Assembly: GCF_026210795.1 (NCBI RefSeq)
Contig: NC_089435.1
Coordinates: 620,001 to 684,000, forward strand
Length of the DNA: 64,000 bases
DNA from: Rhizophagus irregularis
Taxonomy: Eukaryota
Direction of reading: 5' to 3'
A model generated the notes under the pieces. It was not told the origin of the DNA. It did no database searches and was given only the letters and a program-made list of their open reading frames with translations. This document shows positions 1,093 to 63,233 of the stretch, piece by piece (the stretch's first letter is position 1; each line of letters begins with the position of its first letter). Both the position numbers and the translations under genes were made by a program.

Positions 1093-1269
1093 TTTGACAT
1101 ATAAATAATTATATGAATAAGATTTCCAAAAAAAATGCAAGTGCTAATACAATAAATGAATTTCGGCTTTTATTGTCATTTCGTATAACATGACATTAAT
1201 GAAGTTTGATATATGTAACATCTCACGAATTTGCCGATCATTTGCCGATCATTATTGATGACTTTTACA

Positions 1270-12312: not shown

Positions 12313-12436
12313 CTTTTAAATAAAAATCGAATTTTCCGTAGTACTATGGCGAATTCACCTTCTATTTAGCAGTTCATTATATAAAAATATAAATATGTTG
12401 AATTTTCCATACTCGTTCATACTGTAATATTATAAA

Positions 12437-15225
12437 ATGGAGCTTGTAAAATTAAATGATGAAAATTCTTTTGATCCAACACCAAAATTAAAATCTAGTC
12501 CCGTATCAATTTCTTTTGTTTCTTTTAATGAGAATGATAAAAATTGTATTCATTGTGGAGAAGAATACACAGAGACGATTATTAGATACCAAAAGTATTG
12601 CAAAAAATGTTTATCGTGTTATTTAACTAATATAACCGATAATAATATATACCTGGACGTATATTTATTCGCAAAGGACTTAGAATGTAATGAACATGAA
12701 ATAAGTAGAACAAAGGTACCACGAAATATTCAAGAATGCTGTAGAAATTGCCTGATAATATTATGTTTTAAACAAATAATTTGGTTTTCTTATCCTAATT
12801 ATCCGGATCTGAGAATTTTATATGAAAACGTGATTGAAAGTGAAAGATATTGTAAACTATGTGGAAAATTATTATATCAAGGAACAGAACATGATTTTAT
12901 TAATAATTTTATATTATGTTCAAATTGTTATCTAATATCTATCGGTTATATAGAATCAACCTTAACTGAAAAACTTATTTCAATCATTTATTTACCATGG
13001 TGGGACGATAGAAGTACTTGTTATTGTCATGAACGACTAATATTTACATCAAATTGTCAAAAGTATTGTGAGAATTGTTACATATTTTTTATTGGGTGTA
13101 GATATTGTTTAACAACAAATATTATTTTTGGAATTGCAAATCAATCGCAATGTAAAAAATGCAAAACAGTATCAATTATTATACTAGATAACAAAAAGAT
13201 TATTAGTTTTAACTGTGGGAACAATGTTTTAGATGATTTTCTTGTTAGTATAAGATCATATCAATCGGAAATAACTAAATTTACTGACGTTATAAAAAAT
13301 ATTGATAAGTATTTCGTTCCAAACAAAATAATACATGATAACTTTGAAAGCAATTACATTTTCCCAAGAAAATTCATGAAATATATGCCATTTTCTCAAT
13401 TTACGAATATAAAAAAAATAGCAGTAGGGGGATTTAGTATAGTATATCAAGCAACTTTGTTAGATAGTAATAAAACTATCATTTTAAAAAGATTTAAAAA
13501 TACTCAATACGCTGAAGAATATTTTTTGAGAGAGGTAAATACTTTAAATGTTAAAAAAATTCGTATTTATTTTATAAAAATTTTAATTTTAATCTTGAAA
13601 TTTTTAGCTGAAGTCGTATCATGATAGTTATGCAGATAACGAAGATTATGGTAATCCTATGGTGATTGAAACTTATGGTTTTACAAAAGATCCTCAATTA
13701 AATGGATTGGATAGTTATATATTAGTTATGGAATATGCTTCAGGAGGAAATTTACATGAGTATCTACAAAAGAACTTTACAAGAATTGGTTGGCAAGAAA
13801 AATTAGATATACTATTTAATATTATAAATGGGTATCTATATTTTAATTATATTAGTAAATAATTAATTTATAACACAAATTTATTAATTATTATTATTTT
13901 AGACTTCAGGGTATTCATAATAAAGAATTCATACATCGAGATTTTCACAGTGGAAATTTGTTGGTAAATTTGACAGCTGATTATTATCGCAATTGTAAAA
14001 TCGGAGATCTAGGATTATCACGACCTGCAAATGACACCTCAACGGATAATGAAATTTATGGGGTGATACCTTATATTGCACCAGAAATATTTAAAGGGTC
14101 TGCATTTTCTAAAGAATCTGATATTTATAGTCTGGGTATGATTATGTGGGAACTTACAACAGGTTGTAAACCTTTTGCTAACGTTGAACATGATATTTAT
14201 CTAATTATCAAAATTATTGATGGTGCGCGACCTGAAATTACAGAAGATACACCAGAATGTTATACTAATTTAATGAAAAGTTGTTGGGATTCTGATCCCA
14301 AAAGAAGACCTTCTATAAGTGTCATTAGAGATATTTGTTTTAAATTGTTTTGTCAATTATTCAATTCTACTAATCGATCATTTGATCAAGCTGATTTAAA
14401 AAGTAATACGTTAATAGATTCAAAGAAGCTTGGTCTTAAGTTTAGTGAAAAAACTCATCCAAAGGCTATTTATACAAGTAGATCATTAAACTCTTACATT
14501 TCTAAATGTTCATCTATATTTTCTAAATGTTCATCTATCAAATTTTCATCAAATGGTATGTATTATATTATGGATAAATCTAATTGTAACAGCCTGTTAC
14601 GCGTCTTATTTGTAACAACCCCCAATTTTATCCAATTAAAATTTAAGATCAGGCGTAATGTAAACAAAAACAAAAGATCAGTTGTGTAAAAAATTTCAAG
14701 AAACTGCTTATAACTTAAAATTTTGTCTATGAAACTGTCTTAAGTACATTAAGTAAAAGTTTTCCAAATTAAATTTTGCATATAAAAATTTTATTCGTGA
14801 AACACATATTAAATTTATTATTAAAAAAAAATAAAAAAAGGATGTTACAAATAAGATATGTAACAGGCTGTTACAAATACATTTTTTCTTATATTATTTT
14901 AATTAAAGTAATCTTTTGGATAAATAAATTAATTTTTTTTTTTCATAGATTACATTTCAAAAGAATTAAAATTTGACATAGATGCTGAGAGGTACTTTAA
15001 AGTTAAAAATATTTGTTATTTATAATTTAAATCTAACAACGGAATCTACAATTTTATATTAGCAATAGACTCGACTCATTTGTAATTAAGCGAAATATTG
15101 AAGAATCAAATATTAATTCTTGTGAAAATAATGGTAAATATTTTATTTAATTAAATGTTACCAAGATTTATTTATATTTTTACTTATTTTTATAATTTAA
15201 AATAGGAAAACGCATTAAAAATTAG
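12437..15225 (+). CDS. TKL-type Ser/Thr kinase with long Cys-rich (multi-CxxC) N-terminus
   Basis: Exons 12437-13534, 13608-13831, 13903-14555, 14949-14990, 15063-15133, 15206-15225 in frame; AVGGFSIVY, IILK, HRDFHSGN, DLG, YIAPE, DIYSLG. Confidence 0.85.
14584..14876. mobile_element. MITE inside kinase intron 3
   Basis: ~33-bp TIR ttgtaacagcctgttac..tcttatttgtaaca / tgttacaaataaga..gtaacaggctgttacaa. Confidence 0.8.
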
Positions 15226-19523: not shown

Positions 19524-20572
19524 TTAATCTTCAATTGCACAATCATAACCCTGAGTAGACTCTTCTTGAACTGAATATTCTTGAACTAAGATTTCAGTAA
19601 GTTTGCGACTTGTATAATATACTTGTGAATGAGATTGCATAATAGAAGTATTTGCTTGTAGATGAGATTGCATAATAGAAGTATTTACTTGTTCTTGTAC
19701 TGAAGTTTTGTCTGCTACTACAAGTTCAAACATATCATTTGTTAATTGATTATTAATTGCATGTACTCTAAATTGATAATTTCCATTCCTGTTTAATCTA
19801 TAATATTCATTAATACATTCAATCCATTCAGATATAGTATTTACAAGCATCATTATGGTTGGTCTATTAGAAGGGTTTGAATCCCAGCATTTTTCATTTA
19901 AATCTATATAACAATTTGGAGTACTTTTCATAATTTTAGGACGTTCTCCATTACAAATACTCAAAATCAGATCATGATCATGTGCTTCATGATTAAATGG
20001 GGGAATACCTGATGTAAATTCCCACATTATCATTGAAAAACTATAGATATCACTTGCTTGAGTATAGGGATTACTTCTTAATATTTCAGGCGCCATATAA
20101 GGTAAAACTCCATATATTTCATTATCAGAATCCTGTAAATCACTTATAGGTTTACATAATCCTAAATCAATAATAAATACCTCATTGTAATTATCTGATA
20201 TTAAAATATTACCATCATGGAAATCACCATGAGCTAAATTTGATTCATGAATTACTTTAAGTCCTGATACAATATTTTTTAACAATTGTAACCTGTCTTG
20301 CCACTTAAATTTAACTATATCAGACAAACGCTTTCTCAAACTTCCTTTTTTTGCATAACTCATTACGATCATATAATTTAAATTATTTGGATCTTGAGTA
20401 ATTTCAAAGAATTGAATAAATTTTGAAATGACTTTTTTTGACAATTATAATGATATTTCCACTATATAGATAATAAAAAAATTATTAAATTTTTTTGCAA
20501 AAGAAAATAAAATTTGCTATTAAAATAAATACTATACCTCATCCAGAAATTTACTATTCAAACTTGATGTAA
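19524..20572 (-). pseudogene. 5'-truncated, frameshifted paralog of the Sel1/non-RD kinase at 43319-47016
   Basis: Same intron and kinase exon (HGDFHDGN, IIDLG, YMAPE); 1-nt deletion near 20427 (TCATTTCAAAA vs TCATTTTCAAAA); homology stops near 20572. Confidence 0.8.
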
Positions 20573-23359: not shown

Positions 23360-23824
23360 ATGGAAAAGAAAGAAAGTTATGAAATATCAGAAGATAATCC
23401 ACTCTTGGTAAATTTTTAACAAATAATAATATTATTATATATTTAAAAGTTTTTATTATACATGTGAATTATTACTTATAAATTTTGATTTTTTTTTACA
23501 TAGAAAACATTAGTAGTTTCTACCAAAGACTCTTCTTCCGAAGATATTCAACAAAATCAATCACTTTGCAAGATTTCTTCCTCTTCTTCACGTTCATCAA
23601 AATTTTCTAATAATATCGATAAAAAAATATTACAAAACGAAAGAAACGAAAGGAAAAGAATGCTTAACAGAAAGGCTGCCGCAAGATTAAGACAAAAAAA
23701 AAAGAAAGAGATAAAAGAATTACAAGATTCAAATATAGGTTTAAGAGATGAAATTGAGCAAGTGGAAAGTATTATAATGAAATTAAGACAACAAATTATG
23801 GATCTGGAAATAAAGGAGGAATAA
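23360..23824 (+). CDS. Small bZIP transcription factor (122 aa), absent from the ORF track
   Basis: Exons 23360-23407 and 23504-23824; basic region RKRMLNRKAAARLRQKK (N-x7-R) followed by an L/L/V/L/L heptad zipper. Confidence 0.85.
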
Positions 23825-28005: not shown

Positions 28006-30574
28006 TTACTTTGCATGAATTTGTTCTAATTTATTTTGAGCATATTGATTTCCTTGTAATGCAGATTTTTTATACCAGTAAATTGCTTGATTTATGTCTT
28101 GAATAATTCCTTTTCCATTTTCATACATAAAAGCAAGATTATATTGAGCTGCAATATTTCCTAAATCTGCTGCCTTTTGATATAATTCAAATGCCCTTTT
28201 TTCATCAATATCAGTTCCAATTCCCCTCCTATAACAATCACCTAGATTACTTATTCCATATGCATTTCCTAAATCTGCTGCCCTTTGATATAATTCAAAT
28301 GCCTTTTTTTCATCAATATCAGTTCCAATTCCCCTTCTATAACAATTACCTAGATTACTTATTCCATATGCATTTCCTAAATCTGCTGCCCTTTGATATG
28401 ATTCAAATGCCTTTTTTCCATCAATATCAGTTCCAATTCCTTCTCTGTAATATTTACCTAGATTATTTATTCCACCTGCATTTCCTAAATCAGCTGCCTT
28501 TTGATATAATTCAAATGCCTTTTTTTCATCAATATCAACTCCAATTCCTTTTATATAACAATTACCTAAACTATTTATTCCATTTGCATTTCCTAAATCT
28601 GCTGCCTTTTGATATAATTCAAATGCCTTTTTTTCATCAATATCAGTTCCAATTCCTTGTTTATAACAATATCCTAAATTAAATATTCCACCTGCATTTT
28701 CTAAATCAGCTGCCTTTTGATATAATTCAAATGCCTTTTTTTCATCAATATTAATTCCTAATCCTTTTTGATAACAAACTCCTAAACGGTTTATTCCTTT
28801 TGAATATTCTCTTTCAGCTAATTTTTTAAATAATTCAAAAGCTTTATCATAATTTTTATAAACACCATACTCATATAGATAACAGCAACCAAGATTATAT
28901 TGTGCTATAATATTTCCTGAATTTGCAGCTACCTGATATAATTCAAATGCCTTTTTTTTATCAATCTTAATTTCAATTCCTAAATAATTAAAATCTCCAA
29001 GTAAAACAATAGAATTTGAATGATTTTGATTATTTAATAACCAAATATAAATTTCCTGTGGAGTTATATTATGATTATTAAGATAATTATAAATGCATAG
29101 TCTTTCTAATTCTTCATCTTCTACGCTTAATTTATCAGAAAGTTCAACCATTTCATCAACTGTCACCATAAAGTTATTATTTGATGATATTGAAGAATCT
29201 ATTTCTTTAATATTCATCTTGTCAAACTCTTGAATAAATTTGGATAATTCTCCATGTGATGAATTATTTATAGGATCCTCAAAAGCATTCAAATCGAGTT
29301 GTTGTTTATTGGATAATTGGTTTGTATAAGAATCATTTGTCCGAAAATCGTCTATAATCATGTTATTATTATTCAGAATAATTACATTTAATTTAAAGAC
29401 CACCTGATTGATAGTTGGACGACTATCTGGTTCATTATTCCAACAATCTAAAAAAAATAAATAGAATTAATTTAATTAACATTAATATAAACATAGAATT
29501 AATTATTAATTATATTTACCAGTATAAATATTCACATAATCTTCGGGTGTATCAGGAATGGGTGTCTCTCTAAGGCCTTGTGATATATTAATTGCTAAAC
29601 AAACGTCATACGGTTTACCTTCAGTATAAAAAGGAGGATTGCCACTAGATATCTCCCATAAAAGTATTCCAATACTATAAATATCACTTTTTTTATTTAA
29701 TTTATAATCTTGATTACTGAAACTTTTTGGGTCAATATAAGGAATTACTCCAAATAATTTCGTTGAAGAAAGGTTGGATGATTCCTCAATTCTTTTTGAT
29801 AGACCAAAATCAGCTAATTTAACTATATTTTGATGAACTAATACATTTTTGGAATGCTATTAAATACAATAAATTTATTAATTACAATTCAAAAACATGA
29901 AATAATAAAATGTAAACAAATGAATTACCAGATCACGGTGAATAATTCCTTCATCATGTAAGCATAATATAGCACAAGCCAACTGAGATGCCATATTAAA
30001 TTTATTATTCCAGGTAAGATTATCAAAATGTTCCTTCAAATATTCTCGAAGAGTACCTCCATCTGCATATTCCATTACCAACCAATATTTTTTTGAATTA
30101 TCAACTTGATTTTCTTTGTAAAAGAAAAAAAATAAAATAAATTTAGATTTTACAATCAAATTATGCATGAAAAGAAAGTATATTATACCTGTTGCAATAC
30201 CACAGAAACGAATAATATTCTCATGAAAATCCACTTCACGCTGAATTTTAAGCTAAATAGAATTTTAAATTAGAAGTTATATAAATTATAGGGTAATAAT
30301 TATTTATTATTACCTCTTTAACTATTTCTTTAATTGTGACGTTGTTAAAATTGAAAAAAGATTTTAATGCCAAATAATTAGGAGAACTTTTCCAGTTCGC
30401 ACGGTAAACTTTCCCAAACCCTCCAAATCCAATTTCTTGAAAATTACTGAAATGATTGAGTTCATAATATTTAAAGTAATCTTTTGCAATGGCTTCTTCA
30501 ATCCAATTAATACACTCATTATTTGAATTTTCAGTAAAATTTACGGGTATATTAAACTCGGTGTTATTAGACAT
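28006..30574 (-). CDS. TKL kinase with C-terminal Sel1-like repeats (RD kinase)
   Basis: Exons 30574-30314, 30252-30189, 30113-29929, 29856-29520, 29447-28006 in frame; GFGGFGKVY, LALK, HRDLHSKN, DFG; ~10 Sel1 repeats of 36 aa. Confidence 0.9.
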
Positions 30575-31236
30575 TATTGGGTTTAATTTTCATTGACGAA
30601 GATAATATTTTTTTTTTTCATGCAATTTATGCAATTTAAGTTTGCTTATTAAAAGGACTGGTATTACCAAGACGTAATTGTGCATGGAAGTACAGTAACT
30701 GTCGATCACTTCAGGTGATACTTTAAAAATAGGTGTATGCCAGACACTATGGCTGTATATATCTATCTATTTGATGATTTTATATATGAAGCACACCCAA
30801 GATACTACTCAAAATGTAAATATTACAATAAAAGACATGTTTTCGTAATGCATCATTACATCATATTTTTTTTTTTTTTTTTTTCATCATTACATCATAT
30901 TTTCTTTGTACATTTTTTTTTACATTTAAAAAGTTTGACGTTTTTGGTAACTCAAAAAATTAATCTAACTTTAATTGGAATGATCAACGAATTGAAAATA
31001 TAACGGGATGATTGAAAATTACGGCCCGTATTTAGAGATAATTCTGGCTCGAATTAACTAAAATCTGATCTGCACAATATAAACTAAAACGTCCAGTCAG
31101 TCCTAAAAATTCAATGTTGTTTAATATTTTAAAATCATAAATAATATCGCATAAAATTATAAAATTGCAATTTTAATTTAAAAATTCTGGTCTGGGTACG
31201 GTTCAGACCATATCTTCATATTTTAATTAATAACTA

Positions 31237-32334: not shown

Positions 32335-33105
32335 TTAATTTTATTTATACAATATCTGTCTTATGTACTATACCTATTATTAGAAAAAAAAATTAAAAAA
32401 AAATTTCTGAAAGATTTTATTATATTTATACCGATCTATTGCTATTGGCATTATTAAAAAAAATCAGAAAATTTTATTTATACAATACGTACCCGTCTTA
32501 TGTATTATACCAATCTATTGTTATTATTAGAAAAAAAAATTTAGAAAAAATATTTTGTTATATCTATAATGATCTATTGGCGTTATTAGAAAATTTTATT
32601 TATACAATATCTGTCTTACGTACTATACCTATTATTAGAAAAAAAAATTTAAAAAATATTTCTGAAAGATTTTGTTAGATTTATTGATATTAAAAAAAAA
32701 TGGTTAGGAAAATTTTATTTATACAATATGTATTATAGTACCTATTATTAGAAAAAAAATTTAAAAAAAAATTCTGAAAGATTTTATTATATTTATAATG
32801 ATCTATTGCTATTGGCATTATTAAAAATAAATCAAAAGATTTTATTTATACAATACGTACCCGTCTTATGTTCAATACCAATCTATTTTTATTATTAGAA
32901 AAAAAAACTTTAAAAAAAATTCTGAAAGATCTATAACGATCTATTGGTATTATTAAAAAATAAATCAGAAAATTTTATTATAAAATATCTGCCATATGTA
33001 TTTTATTATACTATCTATTGTTATTATTAGAAAAAAAATTTTTAAAAAAAATTTCTGAAAGATCTATAGCGATCTATTGGTTATTAAAAAAATAAATCAG
33101 AAAGG
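32335..33105. repeat. AT-rich degenerate tandem array; further units at ~33840-34000
   Basis: Recurrent ttttatttatacaata..tattattagaaaaaaaa..tttctgaaagat..gatctattgg units. Confidence 0.8.
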
Positions 33106-34696: not shown

Positions 34697-37028
34697 TCAG
34701 AACTTATATTCATTACGAAATCTAATAGCAGCTTCGTAACCATTATAAACACCTAATTCTATATAATTCTTGGCTTTTTCTATATTTTTTTTACATCCAA
34801 TACCATTATAATACATATTTCCAACGTTGTACATTGCTACTACAACACCATCTTCAGCAGCTTTTTCAAAATATTTAAGAGCTTCTGATTCATTCTTATC
34901 AACACCTTTACCATTAAACAAACAAGCTCCATATCTTACTTTTGCATCAGGGTGTTCATTTGCGTCATCATCAGCAACTTCTTTAAATAATTCAGCAATA
35001 ATTTTATCTTTATTTGGAGGGCTCTCAGCAAATCCTCTTGAAATGTAAATTGCTTTATAATATTTTGCTGTGATTTGATTACGGTTTGCTGTACCTCCTG
35101 TATTACCAAGGTTTGCATAGGCTTCAAAACATTTATATGCAGTTTTTACATCTCCACTAGGCCTGCCATTTTTAAACATCTTATGTTGTTTCGCTGCATC
35201 AGCAAGTGTCATGTATTTAAATGATTCAAAATCTAAATTAATAGGAAGTGCATATGCATCTTGATCAATGCTGAATGCTCGTTTTTGAATAAACTTCGGA
35301 GTGGAAGGTTTTCTGTCTAGGGTTAAATTACAAAAACTTGATGGTTCTTGTGAATATTTCTTGAAACAATTATTAAGAACTTCAAACATGTTCGTGATTT
35401 TTGGCCTAAAATCTGGGTCATGATAAACGGCTAAAAAAAAAGAAACCAATTAAGTACAACAAATAAAATTGTAATTTAAAATATTTTCTTTTACATACCT
35501 TCAATTTCTAATCGTTTGAATTCTTCTGGCATTTGACTATTTTCAGAAAATGGTTCTCTATACGTTTTATTACGTACCTTATCAATTATATCCACAATAT
35601 CATTACTATCCTGATATGGAACTCTTTCTTCAGCAATTTCCCAAAGTAAGATTCCAAAACTATAAATCTCACATCTTTGATCATATTTATAATTTGGCGG
35701 CCTATCCAACAATTCAGGTGCACAATAACGAACTCGATCAAAGTCTGGGTTACCGCGTTCGCCGTGTTGGTAACGAATTAATTTGAAATTTGCAAGTTTT
35801 GCTGTCTCATTAAGTGTAATTAATATATTTTTAGCTCTAATATCTTGATGAAAAATCTAAAAAAAAAAAAAAATTAAAAAAAAATTTTCGTTAATTAAAT
35901 AAAAGCTGGTTATATAATTACCTCTACAGTTCTTAAAAAATTTAATCCACGAGCAATATCAAGAGATATACGTAATTTTGATTTAAGGTCGAAATCATTT
36001 TTATTTTGATAAAATTCACGTAAATTTCCACGTTCAGCCCATTCAGTCACAAAATAATGACATTTATTTTCATCAGAAATTATTCCATAAAATTTTATGA
36101 TGTTTTGCCAATCATGAAGTTCTTTAAGAATTGTAACTTTATTTTGTACAATCATATAGTTTTCTGCCTCAGAGATATTTTTAAAAGCAAATACTTCACC
36201 TTTATTTGTTGTTTTATACCATTTATTTACATGTCTATCATCACTTTCATAATCAGAAAATTTTAATGGATGTATCTGAAAGATATTATCAATTTTTGTT
36301 TGATTTTGAGAAGTTTCATTCATAAATTTTTTCATTGTATTATTCATTACATCAACTTTTACAACTGTTGAAAAAAACTTTTCACTTAAGACTGTGAAGC
36401 AGTCGTTATCATTAATACCAGCCACCATTCCTAATATATACTATAATTATTAAAATAATTTAAAATTAATTTTATGTTCAATTAAAAGTAAAATAAAACT
36501 CAATTTTTTTTATAATCTTACTTTAAATAAATCATCTTGATCGGATTTTAATTGTTCAAGTTCATCAGCAATTTCAACGTTAATAGAAAAAGACAATAAG
36601 TTAATACAACTGTCAGATTCCATACATAATTCTTTAAAAATTTTCTCAACACTTTTCTCTTTAAGGTATTTTATCAAAGTTTTCATTAGAGAGATTTCTG
36701 ATATAAATTTTTTAATTTGCGTTATAATAGTAGATAATTCTTGTAAACGTATATAATTTATTCTATTAAAGAAATCTTGTCTGTCTTTTTTTTTATCTCT
36801 AAGATCTCGTACGGCTAATTCTGCAACACGAACTCGATTTTTTAATATTTTACAAGTTCGTTTATTGTGTTCAGCAGCTTCTACTAATTCGATGATTTCG
36901 TTAAAAAAATTTCCAATTTCATTAATTAAAGGAAGAAATTTTGCAAATGGAACAACCATTAAAGCACTATCTTCCAAATTTTCAACGAAATCATCTTCTT
37001 TATTATTTTTTGATCCATCATCTCCCAT
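34697..37028 (-). CDS. MLKL-like protein: N-terminal helical bundle + pseudokinase + Sel1 repeats (~705 aa)
   Basis: Exons 37028-36522, 36440-35922, 35856-35499, 35430-34697 in frame (2118 nt); PFAKFLPLI..AEHNKRTCKILKNRV helical N-terminus; no Gly loop, FAFK, HQDIRAKN, KLANFKL, YCAPE, CEIYSFG; C-terminal Sel1 repeats. Confidence 0.85.
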
Positions 37029-43318: not shown

Positions 43319-46300
43319 TTAATCTTCAATTATACAATCAAGACCTTGAGTCTCTTCTTGAACTAAAATTTCAGTAAGTTTGCGACTTGTATAATATGCT
43401 TGTGAATGAGATTGTATAACAGAGGTATTTGCTTGTTCTTGAAATAAAGCTTTATCTGCTTCTACAAATTCTAACATATTATTTGTTAATTGATTATCAA
43501 GATTAGGTACTTTATAGACATAATTTCCATCCCTGTTGAATCTATAATATTCACTAATACACATATTCCAATCAGATAAAATATTTTCAAGCATTTTTAT
43601 GGTTGGTCTTTTAGAAGGATCTGAATCCCAACAACTTTTCATTAAATCTATATAACATTTTGGAGTATTTTTTATAATTTCAGGGCGTCTTCCTTCTTTA
43701 CAAATACTTAAGGTAAGGTGATTATCATGTGCTTCATGATTAAATGGAGGGATACCTGATGTAAATTCCCACATTATCATTGAAAAACTATAAATATCAC
43801 TTGCTGGTGTATAAGGGTTTTTCCTTAATATTTCAGGCGCCATATAAGGTAAAACTCCATAAATTTTATTAACTTTATTGACAGAATCTTGTAAATCACT
43901 TATAGGTCTACATAATCCTAAATCAATAATAAATAACTCATTATAATCATCTGACATTAAAATATTACCATCATGAAAATCACCATGAGTTAAATTTGAT
44001 TCATGAATTACTTTAAGTCCTGATACAATATTCTTTAATAATTGTAACCTGACTTGCCATTTAAATTTAGCTATATCAGATAAACACTTTTTCAAACTTC
44101 CTTTTTTTGCATAACTCATTACAATTATATAATTTAAATTATTTGGATCTTGGGTAATTCCAAAAAATTGAATAAATTTTGAAAATGATTTTTTTTGACA
44201 ATTATAATGATATTTCCACTATATAAATAATAAAAATATTGTTAACCATTTGCATAAAAAAATAAAATTGCTACTAAATATGAATAATATACCTCATCCA
44301 GAAATTTACTATCTAAGCTTGATGAACTATTAAGTGTTTTAAGAATAACCTCATAACCTGTTTGAAAATTGCATCTATTCCATTGTTGTTTGTTAAAATT
44401 CCAACTATAAATAGGTCCATCTAACCAGATAGCTTTATGAATTTCACTAAATCCTCCTTTATCATAATAATTAATCTCTGACGAGTTATTATAAGGTATC
44501 CACTCTAAAATTTCATAACTACTTTTAGCATTTAGTTGTGCTTCTTGAATAAATTTATCAATAAATTCATTTTTACTAGTCCACTTTGAAAAATCTTGTT
44601 GAAATCGTTTAGTATTACATTGTTGGCACCATTGATAATCAGTATATGGTTGCATGCATTCATTACATGATTCAACTTCATTTTTAGGATTTACTTTATC
44701 ATTTTCTACTACTTTTTGATGCCAATAAAAGGCTTTTTCTAAATTCTTCTTTGTCCCTTCTCCATTATTATAACATGTGGCTAAATTATTCATTGCACCA
44801 GTATGACCATTTTCTGCTGCTTTTTGATACCAATGAAAGGCTTTTTCTAAATTCTTTTCTGTTCCTTTTCCATTTTCACAATGTATGGCCAAATTAAACA
44901 TTGCGTCAGTATACCCATTTTCTGCTGCTTTTTGATACCAATAAAAGGCTTTTTCTAAATTCTTTTCTATTCCTTCTCCATAATTATATCTATTGGCTAA
45001 ATTAAACATTGCTACTTCATAACCATTTTCTGCTGCTTTTTGATACCAATAAAAGGCTTTTTCTAAATTCTTTTCTATTCCTTCTCCATAATTATATCTA
45101 TTGGCTAAATTAAACATTGCTACTTCATAACCATTTTCTGCTGCTTTTTGATACCAATAAAAGGCTTTTTCTAAATTCTTTTCTGTTCCTTCTCCATAAT
45201 TATATCTATTGGCTAAATTAAACATTGCTACTTCATAACCATTTTCTGCTGCTTTTTGATACCAATAAAAGGCTTTTTCTAAATTCTTTTCTGTTCCTTC
45301 TCCATAATTATATCTATTGGCTAAATTAAACATTGCTATTTCATAACCATTTTCTGCTGCTTTTTGATACCAATAAAAGGCTTTTTCTAAATTCTTTTCT
45401 ATTCCTTCTCCATAATTATATCTATTGGCTAAATTAAACATTGCTACTTCATAACCATTTTCTGCTGCTTTTTGATACCAATAAAAGGATTTTTCTAAAT
45501 TCTTTTCTGTTCCTTCTCCATTATTATATCTACTGGCTAAATTAAACATAGCACTAGTATTACCATTTTCTGCTGCTTTTTGATACCAATAAAAGGCTTT
45601 TTCTAAATTCTTTTCTGTTCCTTCTCCATAATTATATCTATTGGCTAAATTAAACATTGCTATTTCATAACCATTTTCTGCTGCTTTTTGATACCAATAA
45701 AAGGCTTTTTCTAAATTCTTTTCTATTCCTTCTCCATAATTATATCTACTGGCTAAATTAAACATTGCTACTTCATAACCATTTTCTGCTGCTTTTTGAT
45801 ACCAATAAAAGGATTTTTCTAAATTCTTTTCTGTTCCTTCTCCATTATTATATCTACTGGCTAAATTAAACATAGCACTAGTATTACCATTTTCTGCTGC
45901 TTTTTGATACCAATAAAAGGCTTTTTCTAAATTCTTTTCTGTTCCTTTTCCATTTTCACAATGTATGGCCAAATTAAACATTGCGTCAGTATACCCATTT
46001 TCTGCTGCTTTTTGATACCAATAAAAGGCTTTTTCTAAATTCTTTTCTGTTCCTTCTCCATTATTATATCTATTGGCTAAATTAAACATTGCTATTTCAT
46101 AACCATTTTCTGCTGCTTTTTGATACCAATGAAAAGCTTTTTCTAAATTCATTTCTGCTCCTATTCCATTATAATACCAATTGGCTAACTTATTCATTGC
46201 TTTTTCATCTCCATTTTCTGCTGCTTTTTGGTACCAATAAAAAGCTTTTTCTAAATTCTTTTCTATTCCTTTTCCAATTGTACAACATATGGCTAAATTA

Positions 46301-47016
46301 AACATTGCACCAGTATGATCATTTTCTGCTGCTTTTTGATACCAATAAAAGGCTTTTTCTAAATTCTTTTCAGTTCCTTTTCCATTTTCACAATGTATGG
46401 CAAAATTAAACATTGCGTCAGTATCACCATTTTCTGCTGCTTTTTGATACCAATAAAAGGCTTTTTCTAAATTCTTTTCTGTTCCTTCTCCATTTTCATA
46501 ACATATGGCTAAATTAAACATTGCTTCTTTAATACCATTTTCTGCTGCTTTTTGACACCAGTAAAAGGTTTTTTCTAAATTCTTTACTGTTCCTTCTCCA
46601 TAATAATTACATACGGCTAAATTAAACATTGCTACTTCATAACCATTTTCTGCTGCTTTTTGATACCAATAAAAGGCTTTTTCTAAATTCTTTTCTGTTC
46701 CTTCTCCATTATAATAACATACGGCTAAATTAAACATTGCTACTTCATAACCATTTTCTGCTGCTTTTTGATACCAATGAAAGGCTTTTTCTAAATTCTT
46801 TTCTGTTCCTTTTCCATTATAATACCTATTGGCTAAATTAAACATTGCTTCTTTAATACCATTTTCTGCTAATTTTTCTAAAGAGTTAATACATTCTTTA
46901 CACCATAATTCTTCAGTAAACGGTTTATTGCAATATGAACAATTTTTGGTGTTTACTGTATCAGTTATATCAGTATGTTTATCATAGATATTTAAATTAC
47001 TAGATTTAGTTTCCAT
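43319..47016 (-). CDS. Sel1-repeat (20x) non-RD TKL kinase, ~1207 aa
   Basis: Exons 47016-44293 and 44218-43319 in frame; CxxC-WCxxC knuckle, 20 x 36-aa Sel1, second knuckle, EWIPY, KGGFSEI, VILK, HGDFHDGN, DLG, YMAPE. Confidence 0.9.
44710..46869 (-). repeat. Coding tandem array of 20 x 108-bp near-identical Sel1 units
   Basis: Counted from the translation; consensus AENGxxxAMFNLAxxxxxGEGTEKNLEKAFYWYQKA. Confidence 0.95.
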
Positions 47017-47236: not shown

Positions 47237-47870
47237 AGTATATGATTATCCAGTACGGTACGAATTTGCAAACCTGTACGGTACGGTTGATCAATTTTTG
47301 TGATAATCATTTCGTACCGTACCGTACTGGTTCTATAATAATCTCTTTATATATAGAACCAGTACGGTACGGTACGAAATGATCAACCATAAAATTTAAC
47401 CAACTGTACCGTACCGTACTGGCTCTATAATAATCTCTCTATATATAGAACCAGTACAGTACAGTACGGTTATTGTTTTAAATGAACATTTTGAACATTG
47501 GTGTCCAAATTACAAAAATGAACATTTTGAACATTGGTGTCCAAATTACAAAAATGAACATTTTGGACATTGGTGTCCAAATTACAAAAATGAACATTTT
47601 GGACATTGGTGTTCAAATTACAAAAATGAACATTTTGGACATTGGTGTCCAAATTACAAACATGAACATTTTGGACATTGGTGTCCAAATTATTAAAATG
47701 GACACTGGTGTCCAATAATTATATGCTAAATGTATCGTACTGATTTTCTCTTTATTATAGTGTCAGTATGGTACGGTACGGTCATGTTGATCAAATTTTG
47801 TAATTTTGTATGGGTGATCAACCGTACCGTACAGGTTTGCAAATTCGTACCGTACCGATTATCCTACTAC
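47237..47870. mobile_element. MITE/foldback element with internal palindromes and a 36-bp minisatellite
   Basis: gtacggtacgaatttgcaaacctgtacggtacggttgatca is mirrored at 47815-47856; ~6.5 x aatgaacattttggacattggtgtccaaattacaaa at 47481-47716. Confidence 0.85.
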
Positions 47871-48577: not shown

Positions 48578-50483
48578 GGTCATGATAAAAAACTCTTCCT
48601 TCAAAAATTAAAAAACATAACAATTCCGCAGTAAAATTTTAATTTTATTTTACTCAGTTTTTTATTAAAATGGAAGATACAAGAAAAATACAAATAGCCG
48701 AAAATAAGTTTCCTATGCTTATTATGGGTGATGAAAATAGGTTTTTAAAAACTACATATTTCCAATATATACAATATTGTGAAAGTCTTAGTGCTTCATT
48801 TTTTAAGGGACGTTCAACAGAAGTTCAAAATAATATTTTAAAAGCAAATTTTGGATTAACAAATGAAGACATACTCAGTTGGGAGAATAGAGCCTCTCGT
48901 TACCAAATGACTCCTCAAAGTTTCTCATTTTTTTTACATGTTGCTATGTACTCTGCTTCTCATGGTTTTAACGCAGTATATGATGGGATACAACAGAGAT
49001 ATGCTGAAAGAAAGCAAATAATGAATGTTGTGAGAAAACATGAGGATAAGTCTAAAAAAAGAAAGGCTAAAAAGAATAAAAAGAAAAAACACCAAACTGT
49101 TGATTCTGATTCTGATCCATTAACAAATGATGAATCAGATGATTATATGCGAAATACTGTTGATGATGATGATCAAATAGGTGATGATCAAGATGTTAAT
49201 ATAAATCGGTCGATTGCGGATGCCTCTGGATCTCAATCACATGTTGATCAACCTTTTGATATGGACGTCACACCAGTAGAACCAGTATCTAATCTGGATG
49301 TTACAATGCCTCAGCCGCAGCTATTACAACAACCAGATAATAATTTATCTAATTTGACAAAATCTTCGAATAAAAAAAGAAGTCAAATAAAAATATAATT
49401 CAGCAAGTTATTACAGGTCATAAACCAGGTGATGATGGTACATCACAAGTCAGAGACATTTTGGTTTATGATATCCCAGTATCCTGGACGCCAGAAGAAA
49501 TTCTGCAAAAGTTAACATTTTGGGGGAATACTATCTCATTACAAATGAAACAACAAAAGAAATACCAAACAGTTCGTTTGAAGATAGAATTAAATTCTTT
49601 GCGTCTTACCCAGTTCGAAGGTAATGATGATCCTGTTTGGACTACGGATTTAGGGGGGATACCGGTTCGATGGTTTCCAGCAAGGTGGACACTCAAAGAA
49701 AGAAAACAACGTGAGAAGTTCCAAGCTACAATTCGAAAAATTCCAGAATCGATGACGATAGCAGCCTTATGGAAAGACCATTGCCCACATTCATTCCTTT
49801 CTGCGATTAAGGGTTTGAAAAGCTTTAAAATTATACAGACTGCAAGGGGGGATCGTAAACTTATTGGTTATTTTGAAAAGTGGGTTGATATGCGTACAGC
49901 ATTAGATAATCAATTTGATTGGGAGCAATTGCACCTGTCTTGGAATCGACATGATTCTCCATCGCAACGAACAAGGTCATTTGGTAATAATACCAACAAG
50001 GACCGGCAACGAACTTCAGGAAGTCGACAGACTGATAAAAGTAAACAGAATTCTAAGAATTCTAAAAAGAAACCACAAGAGGCAAAATCTGAGAAGCATA
50101 ATAAGCAGAAGAAAGATAAGTCCCGTAAAACATCACGATCAAAGGTCTTAGCGGAAATTTTAGATGTTTTACGTAAATTAATTTAGGATATACTAAATTT
50201 TTTTAGGTTTTAGAATAATTTTCTTTTTGTTTTATAGTGTGTTTTTTTTTTAGAAAAATATTTTTGATCTAGTCACCAAAGGATGTACGAATACCGGTAG
50301 GGTGCTTATGCATGTGAAAGTATTTGGGCAGGCATGACGGTAGATAGTTCTTTTGAACATATATTCTTAAGTCACCATTTTTTTTTATTAGTTTTTATTC
50401 GATCTTGTATTTAAACTAGATTAGTTCAATTTTGTATATTTTTCTTTTATAATAAATATTGTCCTTTGTTTAAAAAAAAAAAA
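48578..50483 (+). mobile_element. Poly(A)-tailed retroposed element carrying only an ORF1-like coding region
   Basis: 16-bp TSD tataatttatgttcca (48562-48577 and 50484-50499); AATAAA at 50451; A-tail at ~50472-50483. Confidence 0.8.
48670..50186 (+). pseudogene. LINE ORF1-like protein (basic/acidic tracts, RRM-like region) split by a 1-nt frameshift
   Basis: The -1 frame continues KKSNKNIIQQVITGHKPG..RDILVYDIPVSWTPEEIL from an A-run at ~49372-49378; no RT or endonuclease motifs seen. Confidence 0.55.
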
Positions 50484-52960: not shown

Positions 52961-53487
52961 AATAGATGATATGTAATATCAAAAGTTGTAAAATATATAT
53001 TATCAGTTATTCATATTATTAGTATTATAATAAAATTATTAGATAATCATCAAACCGATAATATTATGGGAGTATTGAAGTAAGAACTTATCATATTTAA
53101 TACGTTTGACTCATTAATCACATAAATCTCATAAATCACATAATGACGCAATTGACAAATTACGACAAAATTACTCAAATTAATGTCATTTATCATAATT
53201 TTAAAATCATTATTGTTAAATAATTTAGGATTATGACAAATCTTTTAATGGTAGGTCATTTACTAAATACTTTTTGTTATTATATGTCATAACTTAATAG
53301 CGTCCTGAAACTTCAGAAAAGTGTCATGAACAAATATGGAAAGAATCGCCTCTGAAATGGTATATATATATTGCAATATTGTAATTATAAATTTGTTAAA
53401 AAGTATAAATAATTAATTTTTCTCAATCATAATATTTGGATATATATAAGTACATCGTCCGCGTTTCCGTCCCTTTTTAAAGAAAAA

Positions 53488-54894
53488 ATGGTGTATTTAA
53501 TTAATGACGTGCTTTACTCAATATTTGAAGAATTAAGAAATGACAAAAAATCTCTTTATTCATGTCTTTTAGTAGACAGGACTTGGTGTGTAGTAGCAGT
53601 GCCAATTTTATGGAAAAATCCTACACGAACTGATAATCCTAATTATTATTTATCAGAAAAAGTAGTGTGTGCATTATTTAATGTAATATACTCACATTTA
53701 CCTGTAGAATTAAGAGAATATGATATTGAAACATATCAACATCCTTCATTTAATTACATTAACTTCTGGAGACATTTAGACTTTGATCATTTAAACTGTA
53801 TAATTGAACGAAAATTGATTGGAACGTCCAACGACTCCATCGTGTCTAACATAAGAAATGAGATGTTAAAATTATTTATTAATAGGGATACAAAGTTTAC
53901 TCATCTTTCCATTTACATAAATTATGATTGCCAACTCTATCAAATTTCAGGAACTGAGCATTGTTTTTCAGAGCTTGAATCTTTTTGTTATACAGGCAAT
54001 AGTGATCAGAGTATTTTAGAAGGATTAGCTAAAATATGCAAATCAATTAAAAAATTAGTATTTGATATTATTCGTTACCCCACTGATAACTCCGGATTCA
54101 TTAAACTAATTGAAGTACAAAAAAATCTAAATGACGTTTGTATCTTCCATATATATGATGGAGATGATCCAAATAATTCATTTTACAAAACTCTTGAAGA
54201 AATATTGATTAAGCATGCAAATACTCTCAAATATTTGAGAATTGATTGGAAACCTATTACAAGATTTCTTTCATATCTTGTAAATTTATTAAGTTTAGAA
54301 ATTAGAATTCCTCACTTAGTATATTATAATGAGCCAGATAATTTAAAAAATTTATCATTTCCTAATTTAAGAATCCTCAAAGTTCGACAAATTCCTTCTA
54401 AAATTATAACAAATTTAATTGAAAGTACAAAAGGAAATCTTGTTAAAATTAAAATTAAATATTGTGATAGTGATAATATAAAAAGACTTATTCAAGCAAT
54501 TTATCAGAATTGTCCAAATCTTGAATATCTAAAATTATCATTATTATCTAATGCTGATTTAATTTTTCCGGAATTTGAAGATTTATTAATTAAATGTAAA
54601 TTTTTAAATGGATTAGTTTTTAATACATATGATGATAAATTTGATTGGGTTAATTTATTCTCAATATTAACTAAATCATCACCAATTAGTTTGATTAATT
54701 TTAAATTTTTTTCTATTAAGGTACAATATATAAAAGATGTAACATTATTTCTTAATAATTGGAAAGATAGGTATCCAATATCTTTAAGTTTAACTAATCA
54801 TAATCTAAATTACTATGAAGTAAAACAACAATTACAAGATTATAAAACGAAAGGTATTATAAAAAAATGTTACTTTAATAGCGGAGAAATTTGA
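53488..54894 (+). CDS. F-box / LRR(RNI)-like protein
   Basis: LINDVLYSIFEEL..SLYSCLLVDRTWCVVAVPILWKNP; Leu-rich repeats such as CPNLEYLKL. Confidence 0.85.
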   Translation: MVYLINDVLYSIFEELRNDKKSLYSCLLVDRTWCVVAVPILWKNPTRTDNPNYYLSEKVVCALFNVIYSHLPVELREYDIETYQHPSFNYINFWRHLDFDHLNCIIERKLIGTSNDSIVSNIRNEMLKLFINRDTKFTHLSIYINYDCQLYQISGTEHCFSELESFCYTGNSDQSILEGLAKICKSIKKLVFDIIRYPTDNSGFIKLIEVQKNLNDVCIFHIYDGDDPNNSFYKTLEEILIKHANTLKYLRIDWKPITRFLSYLVNLLSLEIRIPHLVYYNEPDNLKNLSFPNLRILKVRQIPSKIITNLIESTKGNLVKIKIKYCDSDNIKRLIQAIYQNCPNLEYLKLSLLSNADLIFPEFEDLLIKCKFLNGLVFNTYDDKFDWVNLFSILTKSSPISLINFKFFSIKVQYIKDVTLFLNNWKDRYPISLSLTNHNLNYYEVKQQLQDYKTKGIIKKCYFNSGEI

Positions 54895-61262: not shown

Positions 61263-61565
61263 GATTTGGTAAATCTCTTATTTGCTACGCCGCAGAGGAA
61301 CTTTTGAAGATGTTTCGTATCATTCTCAAACTCTTCGTTTATTATTGTATATAAAGTAATTCAATTCTCTTGACTTCATACTTACAATTTCATCCTCTAT
61401 TACTGTAAGATTTGAACCGTAGTAATTTCTCAAGTGAACGAAGTGATCGACATGCATAAATTAATTGTGCAACAATATCGGAGTCGTAACTCCGAAATGC
61501 ATGAATTTAACCACAAACCAAACTTCAAACAAAAACCTCTCCTTCCCTTTCTCTTTTTACTTAAT

Positions 61566-63233
61566 ATGGCGTGCTCAAAAATATTTTCAGGAGAATTACC
61601 CGAAATATTGAGCGATATTATGCAATATTTTCGGAATGATTTTTCAACATTACATTCTTGTATCTTAGTCAATAGATTATGGTGTCATTTGGCAATTCCA
61701 TTATTATGGGAAAATCCATTTTCAATTATATCTCGTAAAAACAATTATAACATTGAATATCATAAAATTCGTTTTATTGAAATTTATTTGATTAATTTAA
61801 ATGATAATGATAAAATAAAATTAAATGAATTTGGTATAAATCATTTAATTCCTTTAAATACATTATTTAATTATCCTAGTTTTATTCAACATTTAGATGG
61901 ACGTTTGATTGGTGATTGTATTGAAAACTGGGCTGCAGCTGTTAAAAAGGAAAAATCTTTATTTTGGTTTGTTAAGAATATACAAAATTCAGATTTCATA
62001 AAATTTATTCATAAATCATTAATTGAAATATTCATTGAGAATGAAGCGAATTTATATACTTTTAATGTTACACATTATCATGATTATTTTGATATTGTTT
62101 CTGAATCAGTTTTACAAAATCCACATTTTATTCGTAATATTAAAATTCTTTATCTTAAAATTAGTACTCCTTTATTAAAAGTTTTAAGTTCTAATTGCAA
62201 TTCAATTTCATCACTTTATAATCCAAGATTTAAAGATAATACAGATATTGAATATTTATCACAATTAATTAAATCACAAAAAAATCTTAAAAAAATTTGT
62301 TTCGTTAAAAAATTTCCTCCAATATTATTAAATTCAAATTGTTTAAACACTTTAAACACAATTATATTTCTTTATATTAATTTTAATAATATAAATATTT
62401 TAAATGAAGTATTCGAACAATTAAATGTTTTAGAATCTGTTCATATTATGTATTGTTATTCTTTAGATTCTAATTTTATTCAACAAATAATTAATTTAAG
62501 TAAACCATTTAAATTAAAATCCTTATTTGTAGATGAAATATTCGAGTCAATAGAATTATTATTACAAAAATCTGGAGATTATTTAGAAAATTTTGGATTA
62601 TCATTTGAACCTAATACTACATATTATAATGATGTATCAGATTCACAACTCCTTGAAGCAAAATCACAACTACTTAAATTAATCACAAGATATTGTACAA
62701 AAGTTAAATTCTTTGAATTAATTGAATTTAATAATAATCAAAATATTTATTTAACATTCGACTTAATTGAAAGCATTAAACAAAACCTTAATTATCTTAC
62801 TATTGATATAAATTACGATTTTGGATCAGGTTTTAATAGAGATACTGAACTTAGCTCAATTGTACTACAAAATTTAGGTCAAATACTTCCTTTTAAATTA
62901 GAATATTTAGATTTGACTCTTGTTATGAATACTACTGATTTTGAAATATTTTTGATAAATTCTCAAGATACTTTTATCAAGAAATTATTATTTAGTAATA
63001 TAATAGATAGAACACGAGAAGAAGTTAGACAAGACAATTTGTTATATAATATAAAAGATCATATTATGGAAATGAAAAGAGTTAAATACTTTGCTTTTCA
63101 AAATCATTTTACTGATGATGGTGAAAATGATGAAGATTTATTTCATCTGATAGATGAAGTAAAGGAATATAATATAGTAATCCAAAATTACAATGATTTG
63201 AAAATTAAATTTATCGAATTTTTAGTAGATTAA
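61566..63233 (+). CDS. F-box / LRR-like protein (likely start MACSKIFSGELPE)
   Basis: LPEILSDIMQYFRNDFSTLHSCILVNRLWCHLAIPLLWENP; the ORF track start at 61434 is GTG, so ATG 61566 is preferred. Confidence 0.85.
   Translation: MACSKIFSGELPEILSDIMQYFRNDFSTLHSCILVNRLWCHLAIPLLWENPFSIISRKNNYNIEYHKIRFIEIYLINLNDNDKIKLNEFGINHLIPLNTLFNYPSFIQHLDGRLIGDCIENWAAAVKKEKSLFWFVKNIQNSDFIKFIHKSLIEIFIENEANLYTFNVTHYHDYFDIVSESVLQNPHFIRNIKILYLKISTPLLKVLSSNCNSISSLYNPRFKDNTDIEYLSQLIKSQKNLKKICFVKKFPPILLNSNCLNTLNTIIFLYINFNNINILNEVFEQLNVLESVHIMYCYSLDSNFIQQIINLSKPFKLKSLFVDEIFESIELLLQKSGDYLENFGLSFEPNTTYYNDVSDSQLLEAKSQLLKLITRYCTKVKFFELIEFNNNQNIYLTFDLIESIKQNLNYLTIDINYDFGSGFNRDTELSSIVLQNLGQILPFKLEYLDLTLVMNTTDFEIFLINSQDTFIKKLLFSNIIDRTREEVRQDNLLYNIKDHIMEMKRVKYFAFQNHFTDDGENDEDLFHLIDEVKEYNIVIQNYNDLKIKFIEFLVD

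What the first reader, a model, noticed from the sequence alone, without database searches (positions are those of the whole stretch)
34697..37028. MLKL-like pseudokinase fused to its own Sel1 domain
Seen: an amphipathic helical N-terminus; a kinase fold with no Gly loop, the beta-3 Lys retained, HRD changed to HQD(IRAKN), DFG changed to NFK, and EIYSFG in subdomain IX; then Sel1 repeats. Known: human MLKL is 4HB-brace-pseudokinase with HGKIRSSN, KLAGFEL and SEIYSFG. Inference: a single-chain sensor plus membrane-permeabilising death effector. Homologs may already be annotated, but I know of no functional characterisation.
Basis: partly seen in the sequence, partly recalled or inferred. Interest (0 to 1): 0.85.

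Follow-up and report, generated by a model that had tools for sequence, protein, structure and literature searches.

The report
MLKL-like pseudokinase family of mycorrhizal fungi
This spliced gene of the root-symbiotic fungus Rhizophagus irregularis belongs to a large, unstudied family of arbuscular mycorrhizal fungi that aligns end to end with the human cell-death protein MLKL and adds a short Sel1-repeat tail, so it is likely a switchable membrane-damaging protein, although killing is untested.

Summary
A four-exon minus-strand gene encodes 705 aa, identical to R. irregularis XP_065993091.1: predicted four-helix bundle, brace, pseudokinase, then a short Sel1 module. The family profile aligns as one stretch to residues 5-469 of human MLKL, the top PDB hit (E 1.4e-49). 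The bundle model's best fold matches are MLKL (Z 13.5, 13.0). The kinase lacks the Gly loop, the alphaC Glu and the DFG Asp (Asn in 74 of 76) and shares MLKL's unusual subdomain-IX Glu, but keeps the catalytic Asp. Relatives occur in 13 Glomeromycotina genera. "Sel1 is the sensor" is poorly supported: that module is short, constant and conserved. The activation loop is instead the most variable part among close paralogues (25% identity versus about 90% beside it), and this copy's loop has lost every Ser/Thr. The family is transcribed; this loop variant is barely seen. One 2022 paper mentions MLKL homologues with Sel1 in Glomeromycotina in two sentences; I found no functional study. The scan noted the same layout earlier in another eukaryote genome (unchecked). 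Verdict: new variant of a known kind; death function inferred.

The parts
34697..37028 (-). Whole gene, 4 exons (37028-36522, 36440-35922, 35856-35499, 35430-34697), 705 aa
   Evidence: Splice model; identical to public protein P0055
36588..36953 (-). MLKL-type four-helix bundle, residues 26-147
   Evidence: AF2 helices; best VIA-align matches MLKL 6ux8 Z 13.5 and 4btf Z 13.0; Pfam MLKL_N below cut-off; Cys59 and Arg65 align with human Cys28 and Arg34
36270..36587 (-). Brace helices, residues 148-226 (contains intron 1)
   Evidence: AF2 helices 156-175, 184-209, 214-223; collinear with the MLKL brace
36441..36521 (-). Intron 1, 81 nt, GT-AG, phase 0
   Evidence: paralogue reads join 36432 to 36522 with 8 other letters (5 and 4 reads)
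35348..36269 (-). Pseudokinase domain, residues 227-489 (contains introns 2 and 3): no Gly loop, Lys256, alphaC Glu absent (Lys270), Asp347 kept, DFG Asp replaced by Asn365, subdomain IX Glu405
35857..35921 (-). Intron 2, 65 nt, GT-AG, phase 0
   Evidence: 68, 73 and 50 paralogue reads end at 35922 and continue into exon-3-like sequence
35728..35781 (-). Activation loop, residues 368-385: hypervariable among close paralogues, no Ser/Thr in this copy
   Evidence: pLDDT under 50 at 369-378; RNA depth near zero
35431..35498 (-). Intron 3, 68 nt, GT-AG, phase 1
   Evidence: exact joint 35430-35499 in 5, 11 and 6 reads of three RNA runs
34700..35224 (-). Sel1-like helical module, residues 531-705: two Pfam Sel1 repeats plus two predicted degenerate hairpins and a cap helix
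   Evidence: Pfam; AF2 helices; length constancy

Best explanation
The gene encodes a member of a Glomeromycotina-wide MLKL-like family that likely rests in an autoinhibited state and, when its pseudokinase switch is tripped, would release its four-helix bundle to oligomerise on and permeabilise a membrane. Shown: the layout, the homology to animal MLKL over bundle, brace and pseudokinase, conserved loss of kinase motifs, and transcription of the family. Inferred: in most members the trigger is phosphorylation of conserved activation-loop Ser/Thr by one of the fungus's many canonical kinases; the short Sel1 module is a fixed docking or restraining element, not a variable sensor; the output is local death or sealing of a hyphal sector in defence or non-self recognition. 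This copy belongs to a young R. irregularis subgroup whose loops have diverged. It has no loop Ser/Thr, so it would need another trigger (Tyr371, or binding or modification of the loop as bait).
For: Profile A2 (76 rows) vs PDB: full-length human MLKL top, one stretch over chain residues 5-469, 172 bits; mouse 165; MLKL kinase-only chains 146-152 vs best others 143 (a 1173-aa multi-domain tyrosine kinase), ZAK 140, BRAF 137. The single protein also ranks MLKL first among kinases, 88 vs 78.6 bits; so does the Paraglomus member. A canonical AMF kinase control has no MLKL in its best 60 of 542 hits. Fold: MLKL ranks 1 and 2 of 48,161 chains, AtMLKL3 rank 5; Foldseek prob 0.99, TM 0.63/0.75; full model ranks MLKL first and second. 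Subdomain IX Glu in 115 of 133 family domains and in human MLKL, Asp in 20 of 23 canonical AMF kinases. Cys59 (61 of 67) and Arg65 (65 of 67) match by spacing the Cys31 and Arg37 that rotifer MLKL needs to kill (correspondence is my inference). Loop Ser/Thr at +3 and +10 in 104 and 107 of 133 domains. The pseudokinases form one branch apart from canonical AMF kinases (SH-aLRT 100, quick tree). 11 of 292 proteins join a canonical kinase to the bundle-pseudokinase unit in one predicted chain (may be merged gene models).
Against: No killing, oligomer or membrane data exist for any member. The N-terminal profile alone found no MLKL in PDB sequences, Foldseek E-values for the bundle were above 0.1, and Z 13.5 lies in the range the tool warns is common for helical bundles, with unrelated HHM at 11.2. 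The Geosiphon member ranks plant CTR1 (96 bits) above MLKL (93). By geometry the kinase does not single out MLKL (Z 25.8, rank 40, top 27.3), though its 29% identity is the highest of the 50 rows. The catalytic Asp, which MLKL lost, is kept in 72 of 76. The bundle is only mildly basic (median net +3 in 66 rows) and carries an N-terminal extension of median 37 aa. Plant MLKLs can act without cell death. This copy departs from consensus at 8 strongly conserved sites, including Phe138Ser in the bundle, and its loop has RNA depth 0-2.3 against 300-730 in the flanks.
Confidence: 0.52

Rival explanations
1. MLKL-like switch with a non-lethal output: the bundle drives signalling, ion flux or trafficking, as reported for Arabidopsis MLKLs.
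For: AtMLKL immunity can be separated from cell death (bioRxiv 10.1101/681015, passages). The family is abundantly transcribed in four RNA runs (591-1343 reads on 271 bases). Lytic death would be costly in coenocytic hyphae (own knowledge).
Against: The isolated plant domains still kill on overexpression, as do invertebrate ones. Sequence is closer to animal MLKL: AtMLKL is not among the best 60.
Confidence: 0.2
2. The family is functional but this copy is a decaying paralogue under relaxed selection; the odd loop is drift, not a new trigger.
For: Loop without Ser/Thr in only 6 of 133 domains, all in this 90% cluster. Terminal branch 0.092 vs 0.0095 for its sister. Phe138Ser and seven other departures. 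Loop nearly absent from RNA reads. Kinase and Sel1 gene classes are highly methylated in this fungus (PMC8647823, passages).
Against: The frame is intact in all 6 full-length members of the 7-member cluster. Divergence among close paralogues is focused on the loop (0.25) while the bundle stays at 0.90 and the adjacent C-lobe at 0.92. The RNA runs share only a species label and may be strains without this allele.
Confidence: 0.25
3. One reading: the Sel1 repeats bind a foreign ligand directly and trip the bundle, an all-in-one receptor.
For: The three-domain layout is the commonest kinase-bearing one (78 of 292) and occurs from Paraglomus to Rhizophagus. All-in-one fungal receptors with HeLo-like heads are described (PMC12881547).
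Against: Module length is nearly constant and it is not hypervariable (0.75-0.79 among close paralogues). 28 of 292 proteins have bundle and pseudokinase without it, although many of these are partial.
Confidence: 0.13
4. An atypical active kinase with an adaptor bundle, like the wheat kinase-fusion protein Pm13.
For: Lys256 (67 of 76), Asp347 (72) and Asn352 (73) are conserved. Pm13 joins an MLKL N-terminal domain to a kinase predicted to be active (PMC10951266, passages).
Against: DFG Asp is Asn in 74 of 76 and Gly in 2. None of 108 bundle-linked Asn-type domains has a Gly loop. The alphaC Glu position is mostly Gln (54 of 76).
Confidence: 0.08

Closest known systems
Animal MLKL (human 6lk5/6ux8, mouse 4btf; necroptosis executioner)
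   Same: Collinear bundle-brace-pseudokinase over residues 5-469; best fold match of the bundle; subdomain IX Glu; loss of the DFG Asp; conserved helix-2 Cys and Arg.
   Different: Extra C-terminal Sel1 module and N-terminal extension; catalytic Asp kept, alphaC Glu and Gly loop lost; many copies and tandem architectures instead of one gene; no RIPK3 partner identified; no function shown.
TCDB 1.A.105 'MLKL family' homologues in Glomeromycotina (PMC8778642; passages read; supplements not read)
   Same: States that homologues were found only in Glomeromycotina among the early-diverging fungi studied and carry Sel1 repeats; probably this family.
   Different: A brief database assignment. The passages show no analysis of the bundle, pseudokinase motifs, loop variation or mechanism.
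Plant MLKLs (AtMLKL1-3, 6ka4) and wheat Pm13
   Same: HeLo/4HB plus kinase-fold layout; AtMLKL3 Z 10.3; AtMLKL1 is tuned by activation-loop phosphomimetics.
   Different: Described as convergent with animal MLKL; not in the best 60 sequence hits; Pm13 keeps all catalytic residues; no Sel1 module seen in the passages read.
Fungal HeLo/HELL effectors and HELL-kinase or pseudokinase fusions (PMC12881547, passages and section 18 read; Daskalov 2016 not held, recalled only)
   Same: MLKL-related bundle in fungi, sometimes fused to a kinase or pseudokinase.
   Different: Pfam reports MLKL_N, not HeLo, for this protein; no NLR or amyloid-motif partner was seen among the window ORFs scanned; the review has no mention of Glomero-, mycorrhiz- or Sel1.
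Ordinary AMF tyrosine-kinase-like plus Sel1 expansions (PMC8647823, passages)
   Same: High-copy kinase and Sel1 gene classes in the same genome and window.
   Different: Those keep DFG/DLG, the Gly loop and subdomain IX Asp and carry long Sel1 arrays; the family here is a separate branch.

Membership tests
MLKL | N-terminal four-helix bundle of MLKL fold | tested here: met
   AF2 model plus VIA-align ranks 1-2 MLKL, Z 13.5/13.0, rmsd 3.2/3.1 over 135/118 residues; profile alignment from residue 5 of human MLKL. Pfam MLKL_N is under cut-off for this copy (22 of 27 bits) but over it in P0001, P0013, P0020.
MLKL | Brace helices between bundle and kinase fold | tested here: met
   Predicted helices 156-175, 184-209, 214-223; linker median 95 aa in 77 proteins; collinear.
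MLKL | Pseudokinase by sequence (missing catalytic motifs) | tested here: met
   DFG Asp, Gly loop and alphaC Glu absent family-wide. The pattern differs from animal MLKL: the catalytic Asp is kept.
MLKL | No catalytic activity in assay | not testable with these tools
   Needs a kinase assay.
MLKL | Activation-loop Ser/Thr phospho-switch | tested here: inconclusive
   Family: conserved Ser/Thr at +3 (104 of 133) and +10 (107 of 133), and at +7/+8, the positions matching human 357/358, in 60 of 133. This copy has no Ser/Thr in the loop. Phosphorylation itself is untested.
MLKL | Activation by a RIPK3-type partner kinase | not tested
   No whole genome is held; related loci were too short for neighbourhood analysis. 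Canonical kinases are fused to the unit in 11 of 292 predicted proteins.
MLKL | Oligomerisation, membrane permeabilisation and cell death by the bundle | not testable with these tools
   Needs expression and liposome assays.
MLKL | Orthology: kinase domain in one clade with animal MLKL | tested here: inconclusive
   Best-hit ranking and the shared subdomain IX Glu favour it; ranks CTR1 slightly higher. No tree with animal, plant or other fungal MLKL rows could be built.
Sel1-repeat variable sensor (all-in-one receptor) | Long, length-variable or hypervariable repeat array | tested here: not met
   Module median 163 aa, IQR 156-172, n=77; identity 0.75-0.79 among 9 close paralogues.
HeLo/HELL amyloid-controlled effectors | HeLo-type Pfam match and an adjacent NLR with amyloid motif | tested here: inconclusive
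   No HeLo family listed for this protein at E up to 1; no NLR domain among 15 window ORFs scanned; small exons were not all scanned.

The most novel reading that the evidence does not exclude
The family is a true orthologue of animal MLKL, inherited from before fungi and animals split, kept and expanded in all arbuscular mycorrhizal fungi as a necroptosis-type killer. In R. irregularis a young set of copies has turned the activation loop into fast-changing bait, giving single-chain decoy-and-kill proteins against endobacteria, viruses or non-self hyphae.
Probability: 0.22. Interest if true: 0.88.

Novelty: new variant of a known kind. Interest (0 to 1): 0.6.

Why it matters
The origin of MLKL and its relation to fungal and plant look-alikes is called unclear in print (PMC11476962). 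A full-length fungal homologue whose kinase part also points to animal MLKL makes common descent testable. It also gives a concrete candidate for regulated cell death or damage containment in arbuscular mycorrhizal fungi, partners of most land plants, where my searches found no described death effector. It would explain part of their puzzling kinase and Sel1 expansions. The domain can be tested in yeast, tobacco or human cells without transforming the fungus.

Tried and rejected
No whole genome is held, so copy number and neighbourhood in this assembly were not measured. The N-terminal profile A1 against PDB sequences gave one chance hit. Complex prediction of three copies of residues 22-228: no verdict, score 0.28 against a mark of 0.32; no evidence either way. 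Run search: no RNA holder listed; raw-read runs were laid instead. Metagenome scan: 80 loci, about two dozen family-like, mostly 1-3 kb, none close enough for dN/dS or synteny. ESM Atlas on the kinase part gave generic kinase clusters only; on the N-terminal part MLKL_N clusters at 0.90 or below, a lead only. The careful tree did not finish; the quick tree is quoted, built from 69 domains I picked from 292 proteins. A Pfam scan of all A2 members exceeded the size limit. One regex count (canonical kinases) matched nothing and was redone. Rejected: chance ORFs or a pseudogene at the DNA level (intact frame, canonical introns, public protein); bacterial reading (introns, 24-28% GC, AMF homologues); HQD as the inactivating change. 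Daskalov 2016 was not held. Supplements of PMC8778642 were not read and may list this family's members.

Full report
Gene. The window is AT-rich fungal DNA (20-30% GC). The feature lies on the minus strand in four exons, 37028-36522, 36440-35922, 35856-35499 and 35430-34697, with GT-AG introns of 81, 65 and 68 nt, giving 705 aa. The product is identical to P0055, R. irregularis XP_065993091.1, named only 'uncharacterized' or 'hypothetical'. In three RNA runs with the same species label, intron 3 is joined exactly in 5, 11 and 6 reads, and paralogue reads support introns 1 and 2. Most reads come from paralogues: only 49 of 902, 61 of 1064 and 19 of 539 are 99% alike or better.

Domains. Pfam gives a kinase at 256-479, two Sel1 stretches and MLKL_N at 43-160 with 22 bits, under the cut-off of 27; three of the 12 homologues scanned pass the cut-off. 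AlphaFold2 with 76 rows (mean pLDDT 81, pTM 0.63) shows a disordered first 22 residues, a helical bundle to 144, three brace helices, a kinase fold, a disordered linker (490-524) and about four helical hairpins with a cap. A separate model of exon 1 (pLDDT 64) matched MLKL best among 48,161 chains: 6ux8 Z 13.5, 4btf Z 13.0, then HHM 11.2, HIP1R 10.7, AtMLKL3 10.3. The margin over unrelated bundles is modest. Foldseek gave the highest TM-scores of its list to MLKL chains (0.63 by query) but no E under 0.1.

Sequence link to animal MLKL. The family profile aligns in one stretch to residues 5-469 of 471 in human MLKL, E 1.4e-49, the best of all PDB sequences; mouse is second. MLKL kinase-only chains score 146-152 bits, ahead of ZAK (140) and BRAF (137). 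The single protein and the Paraglomus member also rank MLKL first among kinases. The Geosiphon member puts CTR1 three bits ahead. A canonical AMF kinase has no MLKL among its best 60 hits. The normally invariant subdomain IX Asp (own knowledge) is Glu in human MLKL and in 115 of 133 family domains, but Asp in 20 of 23 canonical AMF kinases. Geometry alone does not single out MLKL, yet horse MLKL has the highest identity, 29%, of the 50 rows. In the bundle, Cys59 and Arg65 align with human Cys28 and Arg34 (counted) and are kept in 61 and 65 of 67 rows. Rotifer MLKL needs Cys31 and Arg37, with the same spacing, to kill (PMC11476962, parts 1-2 of 5 read). This favours common descent but is not a tree test.

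Pseudokinase. In 76 rows chosen from the hits (near-duplicates included), the DFG Asp is Asn in 74 and Gly in 2; the catalytic Asp is kept in 72, the beta-3 Lys in 67, the catalytic-loop Asn in 73. The alphaC Glu position holds Gln in 54. None of 108 bundle-linked Asn-type domains has a Gly loop. The domain is therefore predicted to be inactive, by a different route from animal MLKL, which lost the catalytic Asp.

Family. All 120 listed hits at E 1e-30 or better carry Glomeromycotina names, from 13 genera including Paraglomus, Geosiphon, Ambispora, Entrophospora, Gigaspora and Diversispora (a word-limited search). The N-terminal profile finds 580 clusters at 50% identity; 10 divergent ones that I looked up of the 150 listed are all Glomeromycotina; the other 430 were not shown. 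The pseudokinases form one branch apart from canonical AMF kinases (quick tree). Of 292 proteins, 78 are bundle-pseudokinase-Sel1, 28 lack Sel1 (many partial), several repeat the unit, and 11 add a canonical kinase, which may reflect merged gene models.

Where the variation sits. The Sel1 module is about 163 aa (IQR 156-172, n=77) and as conserved as the bundle, whereas ordinary kinases in the window carry 8 and 20 repeats. Among 9 close R. irregularis paralogues the activation loop has 0.25 mean identity, against 0.92 just before it, 0.82 after it, 0.90 in the bundle and 0.75-0.79 in Sel1. At 80-90% flank identity, loops average 0.32 within this young group (57 pairs) and 0.70 outside it (158 pairs) (pairs are not independent, and I defined the group after seeing the alignment). 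Family loops keep Ser/Thr at +3 and +10 in 104 and 107 of 133 domains. This copy's cluster holds the only 6 loops with none. In four RNA runs the flanks have depth of hundreds while 35740-35759 has 0-2.3, so expressed copies mostly carry other loops; the strains may differ.

Mechanism. Most likely (0.52) a dormant MLKL-type switch: a change at the pseudokinase loop would free the bundle to damage a membrane, with Sel1 as a fixed dock or brake. Every step after anatomy is inferred. Rivals are non-lethal signalling (0.2), decay of this copy (0.25, compatible with a functional family), Sel1 sensing (0.13) and an active kinase (0.08).

Prior knowledge. PMC8778642 says in two sentences that MLKL-family homologues were found only in Glomeromycotina and carry Sel1 (passages). 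PMC12881547 notes HELL-kinase or pseudokinase fusions in fungi (passages and section 18). PMC11476962 names a Basidiobolus MLKL and calls the origin unclear. PMC10197012 and bioRxiv 2022.03.16.484565 (passages) do not treat this family in the passages shown. Eight searches found no structural, evolutionary or functional study of it; the library lacks most subscription journals. If right, the architecture is older than fungi.

Verdict. Real and correctly described; a new variant of a known kind, with a one-line precedent; interest 0.6.

Noticed in passing
window 43319-47016 (-): Canonical kinase gene with an N-terminal array of 20 near-identical Sel1 repeats (108-nt period, 20.2 copies, 89% matches), the kind of array expected of a variable sensor.
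   Followed up: partly
window 28006-30589 (-): Canonical kinase (Gly loop, HRD, DFG intact) followed by 8 Sel1 repeats; the nearest kinase gene, about 4 kb downstream on the same strand. A partner role is untested.
   Followed up: partly
P0165, P0168, P0169, P0039, P0040, P0042, P0045 and others: Reversed layout: canonical kinase first, MLKL-type bundle at the C-terminus (10 of 292); also bundle repeats before canonical kinases (P0035, P0104, P0107, P0181).
   Followed up: no
P0004, P0006, P0053, P0025: Mosaic paralogues: P0004 and P0053 are nearly identical but carry different activation loops; P0006 switches affinity after the kinase; P0025 shares its last Sel1 repeats with P0053. Suggests gene conversion or recombination.
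   Followed up: partly
P0013, P0041, P0043, P0036: Family members with extra N-terminal domains: Tse2 ADP-ribosyltransferase-like (P0013, above cut-off) and fungal MACPF-like (below cut-off). Possible integrated domains or merged gene models.
   Followed up: no
P0028 (Funneliformis mosseae): Bundle and Sel1 module with most of the pseudokinase missing; 4 such proteins of 292.
   Followed up: no
window 12428-14689 (+), 19524-20444 (-), 232-1143 (-): Further canonical-type kinase genes and fragments of the AMF high-copy class.
   Followed up: no
window 53413-54894 (+), 61416-63233 (+), 4215-5390 (-), 23504-23821 (+): Two F-box-like genes, an FAD-linked lactone oxidase-like gene and a bZIP fragment.
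   Followed up: no
window 47480-47704 and 32809-33103: Tandem repeats: 36-nt unit x6.2 (95% matches) upstream of the Sel1-kinase gene; 132-nt unit x2.2 in the AT-rich gap next to the finding.
   Followed up: no
window 48643-50186 (+): Two overlapping ORFs without Pfam match; they look like a mobile-element gag-like region (own impression).
   Followed up: no
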